Of a DNA stretch of 64,000 nt, positions 9,420 through 12,363 are shown piece by piece. Every line of letters begins with the position of its first letter. The first letter of the stretch is position 1. A model generated the notes under the pieces. The model worked only from the letters and a program-made list of their open reading frames with translations, was not told the DNA's origin and did no database searches. Source of the stretch: Candidatus Omnitrophota bacterium (GTDB lineage: Bacteria > Omnitrophota > Gorgyraeia > Velamenicoccales > JABMQK01). The stretch covers positions 4,883 to 68,882 of the forward strand of contig JBHPGU010000007.1 of NCBI GenBank assembly GCA_042570265.1, given 5' to 3'. The translations under genes were made by a program, and so were the position numbers.

Positions 9420-10708
9420 GTGATCGGGTTCTTCTTACGCCACCTTCTCCAGGCGATGCCGATTAATTGATCTAGGATATCATCTACGGTTATAACACCC
9501 TGAATGACCTTCTCTTCATTGACAACAGCTAAAACATTTAATTTGTACTTATCCATTAAAACGGCTACCTCTTTTACGCTGTCATCAGGGTAGACGTAGA
9601 TGTTTTTTCTAAACTTTGCCTTCAAAATATTTTCTTTTGGATCCAAAGATATGAGCCGGCGCAAATTTGTAAATCCCAAGAGATGGGCATCATTGTCCAG
9701 TATGTACATATACTGCATCGATACCGGCTTGGAGGTATCCATCTTAATCATATCTAGCGCCTCGCCAACGGTCATCTGTTGAGAAAGGGCAAAAAATTCT
9801 GTGGTCATAAGGCCACCCGCGGATTCACTCTCGTAACCTAACAGCGTGGATAGTCGTTTAGCTTTAGGGGTCTCGAGCAGTGACAAAGTCTTATTTACCG
9901 ATTCCTGAGGCAGCTCATCCAAAAGATCCGCAGCTTCATCCGAGGGCATACGTGAGATTATCTCCACAGTCTCTTTATCGGTTAAATCGTCAAGTAGAGA
10001 TTTTTGCTCTAAAAAATCCAATAATGAAAAAATAGCACTCTTTGTCTCTAGATCCAACGTCTTAAATAAGGCCAAGCGATGCTTATGATCAAGGTCTACC
10101 ATGATCTCTGATAAATCCGCAGGATGGATATCGCTCCACTGTCTCAGCGAGACATTGACCTTGATTGATTTAGAGACTGGATTGATAGATAAAGATTGGA
10201 TGTTCTTCCAAGGAATAAGTTTTTCCCTTGTCAAATAGGCCGCGTTCTTGTTGAATAGGCCGACTAGGACATCCACAATTTTCTCAAAGCCCAAACGTCT
10301 GATAAAGGCCTTTGCCCCTATCTCAACATGAGCTACTATCAAATCTTTGTCAGCTTCGATCAAATGGACATCGTTAATTCTAACAACTTTATGATGAAAG
10401 ATATCCACCACTTGTTGATCGAGCATATCCCTGCGCAAGGTAAGCTTGTCTCGATCGTCTGGAAGGATGTCAAAGTGCAGCTCCTTACCAGATAAATCCA
10501 CCTGCAGGTTTTTTGCCGTCCTTTCTCTAACCAGTCCCCAAGGGATAATGGCGTAACGTTTACGCAATGTTCCGCTGGAAATGATTAAATAAATAGCCTT
10601 AGGGTAGATATCCGCCTGGCCCACAACAATATCATGGAGCTTACCCACAAATTTATCTTCTTTGTCCAAGATATCAGTATTAATCAATCGAGAAAAATAA
10701 ACAAACAT
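9416..10708 (-). CDS. PRC-barrel + MgtE N-terminal + tandem CBS domain protein (no transmembrane pore)
   Basis: HPADLSEI, MPSDEAADLL, YESESAGGLMTTEF, GVITVDD; 4-nt overlap with the NRAMP gene. Confidence 0.85.
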   Translation of the reverse strand: MFVYFSRLINTDILDKEDKFVGKLHDIVVGQADIYPKAIYLIISSGTLRKRYAIIPWGLVRERTAKNLQVDLSGKELHFDILPDDRDKLTLRRDMLDQQVVDIFHHKVVRINDVHLIEADKDLIVAHVEIGAKAFIRRLGFEKIVDVLVGLFNKNAAYLTREKLIPWKNIQSLSINPVSKSIKVNVSLRQWSDIHPADLSEIMVDLDHKHRLALFKTLDLETKSAIFSLLDFLEQKSLLDDLTDKETVEIISRMPSDEAADLLDELPQESVNKTLSLLETPKAKRLSTLLGYESESAGGLMTTEFFALSQQMTVGEALDMIKMDTSKPVSMQYMYILDNDAHLLGFTNLRRLISLDPKENILKAKFRKNIYVYPDDSVKEVAVLMDKYKLNVLAVVNEEKVIQGVITVDDILDQLIGIAWRRWRKKNPIT

Positions 10709-10826
10709 TTCATATCCTTTTTAAAGATTAGTTAAAATACTAAATTCAACGTATTATAAGTCTTAACAATACATTAAATCAAGCAATATATTAAAAACTA
10801 TCGGGAATTTGGTGGTTCAAGATAAG

Positions 10827-10897
10827 AGCGAGCGATGGGAATCGAACCCACATAAATAGCTTGGAAGGCTATTGTTCTACCATTGAACTACGCTCGC
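10827..10897 (-). tRNA. tRNA-Gly(TCC)
   Basis: GCGAGCGTAGTTCAATGGTAGAACAATAGCCTTCCAAGCTATTTATGTGGGTTCGATTCCCATCGCTCGCT; CCA not encoded. Confidence 0.95.
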
Positions 10898-10935
10898 AAA
10901 GTAGCCCAACACGAAAGTTGTTGGGCGAAGACGAA

Positions 10936-11018
10936 TGGACAGGAGAGGATTTGAACCTCTGAAGCACATGTGCAGCAGATTTACAGTCTGCCCCCTTTGG
11001 CCGCTTGGGTACCTGTCC
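10936..11018 (-). tRNA. tRNA-Tyr(GTA)
   Basis: GGACAGGTACCCAAGCGGCCAAAGGGGGCAGACTGTAAATCTGC, long variable arm, GGTTCAAATCC. Confidence 0.95.
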
Positions 11019-11066
11019 AGAACTTTAGCTAATTATTAAGCTTTTAAGCTTAATTCTTTAAATCAA

Positions 11067-11104
11067 AGCTGGCGGAGAGAATCGAACTCACGACCTGAGG
11101 TTTA
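11067..11104 (-). pseudogene. Isolated 3' half of tRNA-Thr(TGT) (position 36 to discriminator)
   Basis: Exact 38-nt copy of 11182-11219. Confidence 0.85.
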
Positions 11105-11181
11105 TACCTCGGGTCAGCTCTTGGCATCCCTCGAGGATCCCTATCAAAGTGAGGGATCCTTCGCTCAAACTATTAAATCTA

Positions 11182-11254
11182 AGCTGGCGGAGAGAATCGA
11201 ACTCACGACCTGAGGTTTACAAAACCCCTGCTCTACCTTCTGAGCTACGCCAGC
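11182..11254 (-). tRNA. tRNA-Thr(TGT), intact
   Basis: GCTGGCGTAGCTCAGAAGGTAGAGCAGGGGTTTTGTAAACCTCAGGTCGTGAGTTCGATTCTCTCCGCCAGCT; part of a Thr-Tyr-Gly cluster. Confidence 0.95.
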
Positions 11255-11306
11255 AAAAAATTTTCAATCTCAGAATCCCTCAAGTGGATCCCGAACGAGG
11301 CGAGGG

Positions 11307-11342
11307 ACAAAACCCCTGCTCTACCTTCTGAGCTACGCCAGC
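11307..11342 (-). pseudogene. Isolated 5' half of tRNA-Thr(TGT) (positions 1-36)
   Basis: Exact 36-nt copy of 11219-11254. Confidence 0.85.
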
Positions 11343-11409
11343 AAATATTTTGCTAAAATTAAATATTGATTATTATATAATTTTCAAAAAAAATCAAACA
11401 ATTTATAGC

Positions 11410-12363
11410 TTAAGGCGTCCAAGCATTCTTAGACTTAAACCAATCTACTGTTATTTTTAAGCCCTCTTCAAAATCAACAAGCGATTGGAAACCCAGCGCT
11501 TCTTTTATGCGAGAAGTATCAGCTAAAGTCTTAAATACATCTCCTAGGCGAATTGGCAAAAATTTAGGCTCAATAAACTTATTTATAATCTTATTCAATG
11601 CAGCGACCAAGTCCAACACGCTATGGTCCTTACTATTGGCTACATTGAATACCCCGCTTTTAATGCCTTCTTTGGTGGCTGCCAGAATATTTGCCTCGAC
11701 CACATTGGCGATAAATGTAAAGTCCCGGGATTGTTTCCCATTGCCAAAAATTGGAGGCTGCTCATCACTTAAGATGCAATCTATGAACTTAGGAATAACC
11801 ACGGCGTATTCATCATCTAGGCTCTGTCGTGGGCCAAAGACATTAAAATACCTCAAACTAACAGTGGTTAATTTGTAGTTTTCACTAAAGATGCGGCAAT
11901 AGTACTCCCCTGCCAATTTGGACAACGCATACGGTGAAATCAACAGCGGCAAAGAATCCTCTTTCTGTGGAAACACATCTGTATCGCCATATATCGAACT
12001 AGAAGAGGCAAAGACAAAACGTTTAACCTCACACTCCCTGGCTGCCTGTAATAAATTTAGCGTTCCGTTGATATTTACGTCATTATAGGCATAAGGGTCG
12101 TCCATGGATTTAGGAACCGATCGCAGTGCCGCCTGATGCAAAATATAATCCACGCCTTGAGCGGCCCTAAGGCACACTCCATCATCTCTGATATCGCCTT
12201 CAATTAATTCGAAATTTGTGTTTCCTTCCGCAAATTCCAGATTTTCTTTTTTGCCGCTGAAAAAATTATCTAGGACTCTGACAAAATTTCCTTCTTTTAG
12301 TAAACGTTCTGTGATATGTGAACCGATGAATCCCGCACCGCCTGTAACTAAATATTTTTTCAT
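11410..12363 (-). CDS. NAD-dependent nucleotide-sugar epimerase (WbpP/GalE-like extended SDR)
   Basis: TGGAGFIGS, ASSSSIYG, SPYALSK (YxxxK), LRYFNVFGP, QSRDF. Confidence 0.9.
   Translation of the reverse strand: MKKYLVTGGAGFIGSHITERLLKEGNFVRVLDNFFSGKKENLEFAEGNTNFELIEGDIRDDGVCLRAAQGVDYILHQAALRSVPKSMDDPYAYNDVNINGTLNLLQAARECEVKRFVFASSSSIYGDTDVFPQKEDSLPLLISPYALSKLAGEYYCRIFSENYKLTTVSLRYFNVFGPRQSLDDEYAVVIPKFIDCILSDEQPPIFGNGKQSRDFTFIANVVEANILAATKEGIKSGVFNVANSKDHSVLDLVAALNKIINKFIEPKFLPIRLGDVFKTLADTSRIKEALGFQSLVDFEEGLKITVDWFKSKNAWTP

What the first reader, a model, noticed from the sequence alone, without database searches (positions are those of the whole stretch)
11067..11342. A complete tRNA-Thr nested inside a second tRNA-Thr split at the anticodon
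Seen on the minus strand: exact 5' half (positions 1-36), 52 nt, intact tRNA-Thr(TGT), 77 nt, exact 3' half (position 36 to end). The outer halves reconstitute the same tRNA around a 202-nt insert with 1-nt overlap (T36). The insert ends (CCCTCG... and ...CGAGGTA) join into a hairpin CGAGG-TATC-CCTCG. Each end also supplies a surrogate anticodon stem to its half (AGGGG/TCCCT; GACCCGAGGT/ACCTCAGGTC). The immediate flanks are partly duplicated too (TAAATCwAAGCTGG). Established: integrases usually duplicate only a tRNA 3' end, so both halves plus a whole copy is atypical. Inference: a non-autonomous hairpin-ended element that inserts at the anticodon loop and carries its own replacement tRNA. From memory, the ATCCCGAACGAGGCGAGGGA end resembles palindromes near small GIY-YIG genes. 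Mis-assembly of two alleles is the main alternative.
Basis: partly seen in the sequence, partly recalled or inferred. Interest (0 to 1): 0.75.

Follow-up and report, generated by a model that had tools for sequence, protein, structure and literature searches.

The report
tRNA gene nested inside split tRNA
A small hairpin-ended DNA insert that carries its own working threonine tRNA gene sits in the anticodon loop of the resident copy of that gene, and related bacteria hold similar inserts, some of which encode a tiny nuclease.

Summary
On the minus strand lie positions 1-36 of tRNA-Thr(UGU), 52 nt, an intact tRNA-Thr(UGU), 77 nt, then positions 36-73. The window comes from a 74%-complete MAG. 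Its four nearest relatives have one plain tRNA-Thr at this syntenic site.

A genome of another family in the same class, titled Candidatus Omnitrophota, has an insert at the same nucleotide. It shares the left-end repeat and the short right end, but its inner tRNA has a different sequence. Contigs from two other studies span 3' half - spacer - full tRNA at roughly 85-90% identity. A pure assembly artefact is therefore unlikely.

The insert ends belong to a REP-like repeat family found in 162 of 401 genomes sampled from the class. In relatives, 12 of 39 small GIY-YIG nuclease genes lie beside a co-oriented tRNA. Eight of those 12 have a partial copy of that tRNA, or of its 3' end and flank, nearby: beyond the ORF in seven, between tRNA and ORF in one. 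One locus (tRNA-Glu) is nested like this one.

Best reading (0.55): an ORF-less cassette that carries a replacement tRNA, inserted at the apex of the anticodon hairpin. The nuclease as its driver is inferred only. I rate it a new variant of a known kind, interest 0.7.

The parts
11369..11397 (-). Only sigma-70-like promoter match in 10780-11450 (TTGATT-17-AATAAT). It lies upstream of the outer 5' half and is the presumed resident tRNA operon promoter that now drives the inner gene.
   Evidence: 1 site found, 1.1 expected in shuffles, so the match is weak on its own
11307..11342 (-). Outer 5' half of the resident tRNA-Thr(UGU), positions 1-36; a dead remnant.
   Evidence: 36/36 identical to the inner gene; D3 repeat; its upstream flank is syntenic with relatives, with the epimerase gene upstream
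11265..11306 (-). Left repeat module (R-left) of the insert, (T)CCCTCGCCTCGTTCGGGATCCACTTGAGGGATTCTGAGATTG. It starts exactly at the junction.
   Evidence: It aligns with the left ends of the two G067 inserts at the same junction. Its core belongs to a class-wide repeat family.
11255..11264 (-). 10-nt A/T leader directly before the inner tRNA; 7 of 9 nt match the flank before the outer half.
   Evidence: D3
11182..11254 (-). Intact inner tRNA-Thr(UGU), the only tRNA-Thr(UGU) found in the assembled genome; the presumed working copy.
   Evidence: ARAGORN; Rfam 65.8 bits; 41 tRNAs in the genome with a single Thr(UGU)
11157..11181 (-). Y head, TAGATTTAATAGTTTGAGCGAAGGA; the right end of the basic unit. 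It ends in GCGAAGGA, the inverted repeat of the left end TCCCTCGC.
   Evidence: Homologous 26-27 nt heads ending GGCGAAGGA (G067) and GGCGCGTGAA (G150) abut the 3' fragment there.
11105..11156 (-). Second repeat module (R-right), TCCCTCAC..CCCGAGGTA, 52 nt, lying between the Y head and the outer 3' half. G067 has no such module.
   Evidence: D4/D6 similarity to R-left. It folds as a stable DNA hairpin set (-15 kcal/mol, z -3.7, 0 of 200 shuffles as good).
11067..11104 (-). Outer 3' half of the resident tRNA-Thr(UGU), positions 36-73; a dead remnant followed by tRNA-Tyr and tRNA-Gly.
   Evidence: 38/38 identical to the inner gene; D2 repeat
10826..11019 (-). tRNA-Tyr(GUA) 10935-11019 and tRNA-Gly(UCC) 10826-10897, the rest of the conserved Thr-Tyr-Gly cluster.
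   Evidence: the same order is seen in relatives

Best explanation
The 202 nt between the two outer halves are an inserted cassette. They are not an intron, and they are not two integrase scars. The basic unit is a repeat module at the left end, a short leader, a complete tRNA-Thr(UGU), and a head of about 25 nt ending in GCGAAGGA. The unit is bounded by inverted repeats of about 8-10 nt (TCCCTCGC ... GCGAAGGA). In the window it is followed by a second copy of the repeat module. It sits at the apex of the anticodon hairpin of the resident tRNA-Thr(UGU) gene, between G35 and A37, with T36 present on both sides.

The resident gene is thereby split into two dead halves. The inner gene is the only tRNA-Thr(UGU) found in the assembled genome, which is 74% complete. 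It is probably transcribed from the resident promoter through a leader of about 88 nt and cut out by RNase P and the 3' processing enzymes (inferred).

An insertion into a tRNA gene that appears to be single-copy, and so is probably indispensable, can survive only if a replacement comes with it. That explains why a whole tRNA is the cargo (inferred).

The cassette has no ORF. It is either a non-autonomous member or a decayed relic of a family of palindrome-ended cassettes in this class that land in loop apices of tRNA genes and in palindrome centres. Many members of that family carry a GIY-YIG nuclease of about 90 aa. The likely route is a break at the hairpin apex, repaired by copying from a filled allele, as in homing (inferred, not shown).

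The perfect identity of the inner gene and outer halves in the window then needs one of two things. Either the cassette formed or was re-copied on this lineage's own tRNA, or later gene conversion acted between the 36-38 nt repeats.
For: 1. Anatomy.
2. Empty site in 4 of 4 genomes of the same family, with conserved synteny (epimerase-Thr-Tyr).
3. G067 (same class, other family; L090) is filled at the same nucleotide..GGGGTTTTGT|CCCTCG.. ... ..GCGAAGGA|TAAACCTC. Its left module is homologous. Its inner tRNA (GCCGATG acceptor, GTGGT/ACCAC anticodon stem) differs from the outer halves (GCTGGCG, GGGGT/ACCTC).
4. A second G067 locus has a tRNA-Thr(CGU) 5' half ending ..TTTCGT, then the same module, then a different intact tRNA-Thr(CGU).
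5. G098, a congener of G067, has the empty site. G150 keeps intact tRNA + head + 3' fragment.
6. The 1-nt overlap of the two halves fits a single point insertion. Two site-specific recombinations would each need a shared core.
7. Contigs from two other studies span 3' half-Y-tRNA: X1 record 6 (150 nt, 16 substitutions and 9 gaps) and X2 record 14 (129 nt, 13 substitutions).
8. The left-end core is a class-wide repeat, found in 162 of 401 genomes at up to 2 mismatches, with the reversed control mostly zero.
9. The same architecture occurs with an ORF in relatives. G002 tRNA-Glu reads 5' fragment - GIY-YIG ORF - intact tRNA - about 95 nt - 3' fragment. G001 and G002 tRNA-His read 5' fragment 1-37 - ORF - intact tRNA.
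10. 12 of 39 small GIY-YIG loci have a co-oriented tRNA within 300 nt. That is about one expected by my own rough estimate, which no tool computed.
11. At least 9 of 39 GIY-YIG ORFs are bounded by 13-17 bp inverted repeats and sit in the centre of a GAATTT|..|TCAATTC palindrome.
12. The only promoter-like site lies upstream of the outer half.
Against: 1. In the window the inner tRNA equals the outer halves at 74 of 74 compared positions. About 9 nt of flank on each side is also similar (7/9 and 8/9). A foreign cargo tRNA would be expected to differ, as it does in G067. The tRNA of the same-genus genome G001 already differs at several positions.
2. No other copy of X, Y or the cassette exists in the window's own genome. 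None was found in viral contigs for the tRNA itself or in JGI metagenome contigs for the junctions.
3. The strict tRNA-end + module pattern matched only 3 of 401 class genomes: G000, G067 and one hit that looks like chance.
4. No Thr cassette with an ORF was found.
5. The strict repeat core lies near a GIY-YIG ORF in only 1 of 39 loci.
6. Y1 (IS200/RAYT-type) transposases are present in G000, G001 and G067 and could move hairpin repeats instead.
7. X does not fold better than shuffles (z 0.39).
8. The X-side junction has no independent read or contig support in the tables I could see.
Confidence: 0.55

Rival explanations
1. There were two separate events at the same cleavage point. One cassette brought a copy of the 5' half (5' fragment - X - tRNA). 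Another brought a copy of the 3' half (tRNA - Y - 3' fragment). Both later lost their ORFs.
For: Both one-sided forms exist in relatives. The 5' type is seen at tRNA-His in G001/G002 and at tRNA-Thr(CGU) in G067. The 3' type is seen in G150 at this same locus, and at Tyr, Leu, Asp and Pro. The window's own genome has a 5' fragment (1-35) of tRNA-Ala(UGC) 44 nt before the intact gene. X and Y each hold their own copy of the repeat module.
Against: It needs two events whose boundaries meet at one nucleotide. In G067 both strands of the inner acceptor stem differ together from the outer halves, which fits one whole foreign tRNA better. The one-sided forms can also arise from the nested form by recombination between the direct repeats.
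Confidence: 0.2
2. This is a purely local rearrangement. Replication template switching or break repair at REP-like hairpins duplicated the resident tRNA with about 9 nt of flank inside itself. No mobile element was involved.
For: The inner copy is identical to the outer halves, and the flanks are similar for about 9 nt on both sides. Junction microhomology is seen: TTGT also precedes the same repeat in the Thr-Tyr spacer of G004 (L015/L073). No other copy exists in the genome.
Against: It does not explain the same junction, the same left module and the same right end around a different tRNA in G067, nor the Thr(CGU) locus. Downstream flanks of tRNA-Thr resemble each other across relatives anyway, with CTTTGAAAA-like motifs. 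That weakens the flank argument.
Confidence: 0.12
3. These are scars of tyrosine-integrase islands that integrated in the anticodon loop and were almost wholly deleted.
For: The same genome has integrase-type signatures. A tRNA-Val 5' fragment lies 2.4 kb before the intact gene, with a C-terminal integrase fragment beside the tRNA. A tRNA-Met 5' fragment lies 11.2 kb upstream of its gene. A tRNA-Glu 3' fragment lies 19.4 kb downstream of its gene. The Val and Met fragments are followed by (T/A)CCCTCC.
Against: No integrase lies in or beside the locus. The two halves overlap by 1 nt, whereas two att sites would share a core of about 7 bp (established knowledge, recalled). Spacers of 52 and 77 nt that hold the same repeat would need two near-total deletions.
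Confidence: 0.05
4. It is an assembly artefact of the MAG, produced by threading two alleles through shared tRNA k-mers.
For: The genome is a 78-contig MAG that is 74% complete. The repeats of 36-38 nt are exact. The source reads were not available; only small-share holders were listed.
Against: The four junctions are unique sequences that must exist in reads. Contigs of two other studies bridge 3' half-Y-tRNA. An independent MAG shows the same nested layout.
Confidence: 0.03
5. It is a functional intron-like or split arrangement, in which the outer halves are spliced or joined to give a second tRNA.
For: The 5' exon would end in U, and the length (202 nt) is near that of small bacterial tRNA group I introns (recalled).
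Against: No Rfam intron family matched at E up to 1. The insert does not end in G. No tRNA-splicing endonuclease (PF01974) was found in the 74%-complete genome. In G067 and G150 the outer halves are visibly decayed and carry further hairpin inserts.
Confidence: 0.02

Closest known systems
Free-standing GIY-YIG homing endonucleases in tRNA gene clusters (phage T4 SegB; PMC2330249, seen as search listing and start of abstract only)
   Same: A GIY-YIG nuclease gene lies among tRNA genes and promotes inheritance of itself plus flanking tRNA DNA without an intron. In the relatives studied here, small GIY-YIG ORFs sit inside or beside tRNA genes.
   Different: The window's insert has no ORF. The relatives' proteins are 80-100 aa and consist of the catalytic domain only, with no DNA-binding domain and only sub-threshold NCBIfam hits. 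They are bounded by inverted repeats. The host tRNA is regenerated by a carried copy, which leaves a split pseudogene.
Fungal mitochondrial free-standing endonuclease genes that insert into a host gene and carry a replacement gene end, leaving the displaced end as a fragment (Allomyces atp6 case; recalled, not read here)
   Same: The logic is the same: the element keeps the target gene working by bringing a copy of the part it displaces, and the old part stays behind as a remnant.
   Different: The target here is a bacterial tRNA gene. Both halves are displaced and a whole gene is carried. The ends are REP-like palindromes.
Integrative islands and prophages that target tRNA genes through tyrosine integrases (sublocations anticodon loop and T loop; recalled from K. 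P. Williams 2002)
   Same: The sublocations in the tRNA are the same (anticodon loop, T loop). The gene is restored by element-borne sequence, and a tRNA fragment is left at the far end.
   Different: There is no integrase and no att core shared by both junctions. Both halves are duplicated around a 202-nt insert.
REP/REPIN elements with RAYT, and IS200/IS605-derived palindrome elements
   Same: They are short, dispersed, hairpin-forming repeats. The associated gene is flanked by inverted copies. Y1 transposase genes are present in this genome.
   Different: The repeat has no other copy in the window's own genome. No Y1 gene lies beside the copies examined. A tRNA as cargo is not a feature of REPINs.
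Group I introns in bacterial tRNA anticodon loops
   Same: The position is next to the anticodon, the size is about 200 nt, and U precedes the insert.
   Different: There is no ribozyme match and no terminal G. The insert contains a complete tRNA gene, and the outer halves decay in relatives.

Membership tests
tRNA-targeting tyrosine-integrase island | Integrase gene inside the element, next to one att site | tested here: not met
   The insert is 202 nt with no ORF. The neighbours are an epimerase, MgtE, Nramp, PdxJ and similar genes.
tRNA-targeting tyrosine-integrase island | One duplicated tRNA block (attP/attB identity), with a core shared by both junctions | tested here: not met
   Both halves are duplicated and they overlap by 1 nt only.
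Group I intron in a tRNA | Match to the group I ribozyme model | tested here: not met
   cmscan of 10500-11700 at E up to 1 gave only three tRNAs and three sub-threshold unrelated families.
Group I intron in a tRNA | U before the 5' splice site and G as the last intron base | tested here: not met
   U (T36) is present, but the insert ends in A or T, not G.
Archaeal-type tRNA intron / split tRNA | Splicing endonuclease (PF01974) in the genome | tested here: not met
   There were 0 matches in G000, which is 74% complete. The archaeal controls matched.
REP-RAYT / IS200-IS605 palindrome element | Y1 transposase encoded in the genome | tested here: met
   7 matches to PF01797 in G000, 4 in G001, 2 in G067, and none in G002 or G098.
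REP-RAYT / IS200-IS605 palindrome element | Many copies of the repeat in the same genome | tested here: not met
   G000 has only the two copies at this locus, and the control pattern also gives 2. G001 has 11.
REP-RAYT / IS200-IS605 palindrome element | Insertion 3' of a fixed tetranucleotide, without target duplication | tested here: inconclusive
   TTGT or TCGT precedes the module in the window, at both G067 loci and in the G004 spacer copy. Other copies in G001 have other left flanks.
Free-standing GIY-YIG homing cassette | Encodes a GIY-YIG nuclease | tested here: not met
   No ORF lies in the window's insert or in the three other Thr loci. ORFs are present in the His, Glu, Tyr, Leu, Asp, Pro and Met loci of relatives.
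Free-standing GIY-YIG homing cassette | Filled and empty sites among close relatives | tested here: met
   G000 is filled while G001-G004 are empty. G067 is filled while G098 is empty.
Free-standing GIY-YIG homing cassette | The nuclease cuts the empty site | not testable with these tools
   This needs the purified protein and tRNA-gene DNA.
MITE-like non-autonomous element | Terminal inverted repeats | tested here: met
   TCCCTCGC(C)TC versus GAGCGAAGGA in the window, and TCCCTCG versus GGCGAAGGA in G067, read directly. They are short and imperfect.
MITE-like non-autonomous element | Target-site duplication of fixed length | tested here: inconclusive
   Only T36 is repeated, in both the window and G067. 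One base cannot be told from an element terminus.

The most novel reading that the evidence does not exclude
Omnitrophota hold a family of selfish, palindrome-ended cassettes that land at the loop apices of tRNA genes (anticodon loop, T loop, D loop) and at palindrome centres. They are driven by a minimal GIY-YIG nuclease of about 90 aa. They escape counter-selection by carrying a whole or partial replacement tRNA instead of a self-splicing intron. The window's element is a non-autonomous member. As a side effect the family replaces resident tRNA genes with foreign ones and leaves split tRNA pseudogenes behind.
Probability: 0.3. Interest if true: 0.85.

Novelty: new variant of a known kind. 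Interest (0 to 1): 0.7.

Why it matters
Selfish elements that enter essential genes are known to stay harmless in two ways. They splice themselves out (introns, inteins), or they restore one end of the gene (integrases, some mitochondrial endonuclease genes). A cassette that brings a complete replacement tRNA into the middle of the gene it destroys would be a third way. That would give a concrete route for horizontal replacement of tRNA genes in bacteria and for the origin of split tRNA pseudogenes.

The surrounding pattern also gives a testable role to a very common, uncharacterised class of catalytic-domain-only GIY-YIG proteins. In relatives these tiny nuclease genes sit in tRNA genes with a partial tRNA copy beside them. 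Four full-text searches found no paper that describes this. Subscription journals are not covered by that library.

Tried and rejected
- Rfam scan for an intron or other RNA family in 10500-11700: nothing beyond the tRNAs.
- BLAST of the 331-nt locus against the window's own genome: no second copy of X or Y.
- JGI metagenome contigs: two exact-pattern scans, for the 5' half-X-tRNA arrangement and for the Y-3' half junction, both gave 0 hits.
- Exact inner-tRNA pattern: 0 hits in viral contigs and 0 in genome contigs, so no donor was identified.
- The look-up of sequencing runs listed only small-share holders.
- In one search the X side is not shown among the listed pieces, so it is neither supported nor contradicted. 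Parts without cover in those runs are not used as evidence.
- Short-word BLAST of X and Y against all fetched loci gave only core-repeat and A/T-run matches. It was uninformative.
- A resemblance between the X tail and the region upstream of the GIY-YIG gene on G000 contig C16 was dropped. The own-genome BLAST had not reported it, so I treat it as possible chance.
- I first thought the G004 spacer element had the same two ends as the window insert. On alignment its right end matches an internal subunit of the repeat, so that argument was dropped.
- NCBIfam naming of the small GIY-YIG proteins gave only sub-threshold hits.
Full report
WHAT IS THERE. On the minus strand the order is as follows:
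- positions 1-36 of tRNA-Thr(UGU) at 11342..11307;
- a 52-nt spacer X at 11306..11255;
- an intact tRNA-Thr(UGU) at 11254..11182 (ARAGORN; Rfam tRNA 65.8 bits);
- a 77-nt spacer Y at 11181..11105;
- positions 36-73 at 11104..11067;
- then tRNA-Tyr and tRNA-Gly.

The halves match the inner gene at 36/36 and 38/38 positions. The repeat finder gives direct repeats of 45 nt (96%) and 47 nt (98%) that extend about 9 nt beyond the tRNA on each side.

Two points are new. X and Y share a core of about 40 nt in the same orientation (D4 and D6). Y is a 25-nt head ending in GCGAAGGA, followed by a second 52-nt copy of the repeat module that begins X.

CONTEXT. The window lies in a MAG of 1.79 Mb in 78 contigs, 74% complete, with 40% G+C and 41 tRNA genes. 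The inner gene is the only tRNA-Thr(UGU) among them. The neighbouring genes are ordinary: an epimerase, MgtE, Nramp, PdxJ, CdaA and FolP. No recombinase or nuclease gene lies beside the locus. The only promoter-like site in 10780-11450 lies upstream of the outer 5' half. The inner gene is therefore probably read from the resident promoter (inferred).

IS IT REAL. The source reads were not available, because only small-share holders were listed. In those runs a 302-nt contig of X1 covers 11085-11234 with 16 substitutions and 9 gaps. A 151-nt contig of X2 covers 11083-11211 with 13 substitutions. So 3' half-Y-tRNA exists in related organisms in two other studies. The X side is not among the pieces shown. 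The four junctions are unique sequences that must occur in reads, and an independent MAG has the same layout (see below). I put an assembly artefact at about 3%.

RELATIVES. All four other genomes of the same family have one plain tRNA-Thr followed by tRNA-Tyr. They are G001 (same genus), G002, G003 and G004. G002 also shows the epimerase gene end just upstream. The outer halves therefore occupy the ancestral position, and the 202 nt are extra.

A scan of one genome per species for the 5' half/X junction found one relevant hit, L090, in a record titled Candidatus Omnitrophota. The other hit, in a Streptomyces, I did not inspect; I take it for a chance match. L090 lies in G404. By identical contig coordinates and a 100% match, G404 is G067: same class as the window, another family.

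In G067 the order is:
- an outer tRNA-Thr(UGU) 5' half ending ..GGGGTTTTGT, with an extra hairpin inserted in its D loop;
- CCCTCGTTTTCACTCGGGATTCTTCGAGGGATCCTGAGCG.. ;
- an intact tRNA-Thr(UGU);
- 27 nt ending GGCGAAGGA;
- TAAACCTCAG.. and a decayed 3' half ending CGCCAGCT;
- then tRNA-Tyr.

The insertion point, the repeated T36, the left module and the right end all match the window (alignment A1). The inner tRNA differs from the outer halves: acceptor GCCGATG/CATCGGC versus GCTGGCG/CGCCAGC, and anticodon stem GTGGT/ACCAC versus GGGGT/ACCTC.

A second G067 locus has a tRNA-Thr(CGU) 5' half ending ..TTTCGT, then the same module, then a different intact tRNA-Thr(CGU), with no 3' half. G098, a congener of G067, has a single intact gene between the outer-type flanks. 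G150, of the same family, has an intact tRNA, a 26-nt head and a 3' fragment that carries the same internal insert as G067's fragment.

So filled, half-filled and empty states coexist within both families. The half-filled and empty states can arise from the nested one by recombination between the direct repeats. I infer this and have not shown it.

THE ENDS. The left-end core (CCCTCGCNTNGTTCGGGAT, up to 2 mismatches) occurs in 162 of 401 genomes sampled from the class, while the reversed control is mostly zero. G001 has 11 copies of the looser pattern against 1 for the control. The window's genome has only the two copies at this locus, and the control there also gives 2.

The copies consist of short self-complementary subunits (TCCyTCG .. 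CGArGGA). The basic unit (module, leader, tRNA, head) is bounded by inverted repeats TCCCTCGC / GCGAAGGA. It sits at the centre of the anticodon hairpin GGGGT-TTTG|TAA-ACCTC. Y folds well as single-stranded DNA (-15 kcal/mol, z -3.7). X does not (z 0.39).

A WIDER PATTERN. The window's genome holds other tRNA fragments:
- tRNA-Ala(UGC) positions 1-35, 44 nt before the intact gene.
- tRNA-Val positions 2-42, 2.4 kb before the intact gene. A C-terminal tyrosine-recombinase fragment lies next to that tRNA.
- tRNA-Met positions 1-39, 11.2 kb before the gene. The Val and Met fragments are followed by (T/A)CCCTCC and a shared 80-nt end.
- tRNA-Glu positions 27-76, 19.4 kb after the gene.

In relatives, small GIY-YIG genes (about 80-100 aa, Pfam PF01541) are numerous, roughly 3 to 15 per genome. 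I fetched 39 such loci from nine genomes. This count excludes the UvrC-sized matches and five duplicate fetches, and it leaves out about a dozen listed matches for which no locus was returned. Of the 39, 12 have a tRNA within 300 nt, and all 12 tRNAs are co-oriented with the ORF. About one would be expected by my own rough estimate, which no tool computed.

Eight of those 12 show a nearby partial copy of that tRNA, or of its 3' end and flank. In seven it lies beyond the ORF. At the G098 tRNA-Pro locus the repeat found by the self-comparison lies between the tRNA and the ORF, and a second, degenerate 3' fragment beyond the ORF was read by eye. Examples:
- tRNA-His in G001 and G002: 5' fragment 1-37, ORF, intact gene.
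- tRNA-Glu in G002: 5' fragment, ORF, intact gene, about 95 nt, 3' fragment. This is nested like the window, but with an ORF.
- Tyr and Leu in G067, Asp in G150, Pro in G098: intact gene, ORF, 3' fragment, with the junction in or next to the T loop.

At least 9 of the 39 ORFs are free-standing. They are tightly bounded by 13-17 bp inverted repeats that start (G/T)ACCC.., and they sit in the centre of a GAATTT|..|TCAATTC palindrome. Plain hairpin elements also sit in loops of the dead fragments: the D loop in both G067 loci and the anticodon loop of the Glu fragment.

MECHANISM. I commit to the following reading. In this class, palindrome-ended cassettes enter DNA at hairpin apices, the loops of tRNA genes among them. 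In a working tRNA gene that appears to be single-copy, only an insertion that brings a replacement is likely to survive. That explains the carried whole or partial tRNA. The window's 202 nt are such a cassette without an ORF.

What is shown: the anatomy, the filled and empty sites, the same junction and ends around a different tRNA in another family, and the ORF-bearing parallels. What is inferred: entry by break repair from a filled allele, the GIY-YIG protein as the nuclease, and expression from the resident promoter.

AGAINST THE NUCLEASE LINK. No Thr cassette has an ORF. The strict repeat core lies near a GIY-YIG ORF in only 1 of 39 loci. Y1 transposases are present in G000, G001 and G067.

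AGAINST FOREIGN ORIGIN IN THE WINDOW. The inner gene equals the outer halves, and the flanks are similar for about 9 nt. This needs a self-copy or later gene conversion. Flanks of tRNA-Thr genes in relatives resemble each other anyway, so the flank argument is soft.

REJECTED KINDS.
- Group I intron: no Rfam match at E up to 1, and no terminal G.
- Archaeal-type intron or split gene: no PF01974 in the genome, and the outer halves decay in relatives.
- Integrase scars: no integrase, and the halves overlap by 1 nt where two att sites would share a core.

LITERATURE. Four full-text searches found no description of nested tRNA genes of this kind, nor of small GIY-YIG genes with partial tRNA copies in bacteria.
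- The nearest item is phage T4 SegB, a GIY-YIG homing endonuclease in a tRNA cluster (PMC2330249). A 2026 paper covers SegB-driven amplification (PMC13096335). For both I saw only the listing and the start of the abstract.
- In PMC1564403 I read three passages returned by a term search, only one of them in the main text. It is the paper's section on the Slx1 cluster; it notes a GIY-YIG fusion to a TrmH-type tRNA methyltransferase and does not mention tRNA genes as insertion targets. The terms COG2827, UPF0213 and YhbQ do not occur in the paper, so I could not check where it places the small proteins.
- The parallels with fungal mitochondrial endonuclease genes that carry a replacement gene end, with integrase sublocations in tRNA genes, and with small tRNA group I introns are recalled. 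They were not read here.

VERDICT. I rate it a new variant of a known kind, interest 0.7.

Noticed in passing
L103:1409-1832 (G001), L140 (G002), L136:1379-1930 (G002): GIY-YIG ORFs of 81-88 aa sit between a 5' fragment of tRNA-His (1-37) or tRNA-Glu (1-43) and the intact gene. The Glu locus also has a 3' fragment about 95 nt downstream, so it is nested with an ORF. The Glu ORF's stop codon lies inside the intact tRNA.
   Followed up: partly
39 small GIY-YIG loci in G000-G004, G067, G098, G150 (L097-L157): 12 of 39 have a co-oriented tRNA within 300 nt, and 8 of those 12 show a partial copy of the tRNA or its flank nearby. At least 9 others are bounded by 13-17 bp inverted repeats starting (G/T)ACCC and lie in the centre of a GAATTT|..|TCAATTC palindrome.
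   Followed up: partly
G000 contig C12:15645-15791 (outside the window): A diverged 5' fragment (positions 1-35) of tRNA-Ala(UGC), then a small hairpin, lies 44 nt before the intact tRNA-Ala in the Ile-Ala spacer. This is a second ORF-less 5' fragment-spacer-tRNA arrangement in the same genome.
   Followed up: no
G000 contigs C15:33630-36141 and C18:177-11449 (outside the window): 5' fragments of tRNA-Val (2-42) and tRNA-Met (1-39) lie 2.4 and 11.2 kb upstream of the intact genes. Both are followed by (T/A)CCCTCC and an 80-nt shared end (80% identity) with a terminator-like hairpin. The Val element ends in a 122-aa C-terminal tyrosine-recombinase fragment right before the tRNA.
   Followed up: partly
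G000 contig C1:10595-30100 (outside the window): The 3' 50 nt of tRNA-Glu(CUC) are repeated exactly 19.4 kb downstream of the gene. This is the classic signature of an integrated island. Its content was not examined.
   Followed up: no
L090:750-793 and L093:1376-1457 (G067): The dead 5' halves of both tRNA-Thr loci carry the same kind of hairpin element (CCTCGTGC..GGTGCGAGG) at the same place in the D loop. The tRNA-His fragment in G001 carries two hairpins between positions 26 and 27.
   Followed up: no
L090:1068-1181 (G067): The A/T-rich Thr-Tyr spacer (~110 nt) is a dispersed repeat with roughly 30 or more matches at 67-87% identity across G067 contigs, on both strands.
   Followed up: no
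L013:1540-1590 (G003), L015:1220-1280 (G004): Another hairpin family (CCCCACGCGTAAGTATGGGG-like) flanks the tRNA-Thr gene in G003 and G004.
   Followed up: no
L128:1380-2090 (G098, reverse strand): The order is tRNA-Pro(GGG), then a 3' fragment, then a GIY-YIG ORF, then a second 3' fragment. Both fragments are preceded by GCGRCTCG and start in the T loop, as if the site had been entered twice.
   Followed up: no
L099:1300-1960 (G001): A GIY-YIG ORF after tRNA-Met is flanked by a 101-nt direct repeat (99%). The repeat starts in the last 7 nt of the tRNA and runs through a block of hairpin repeats.
   Followed up: no
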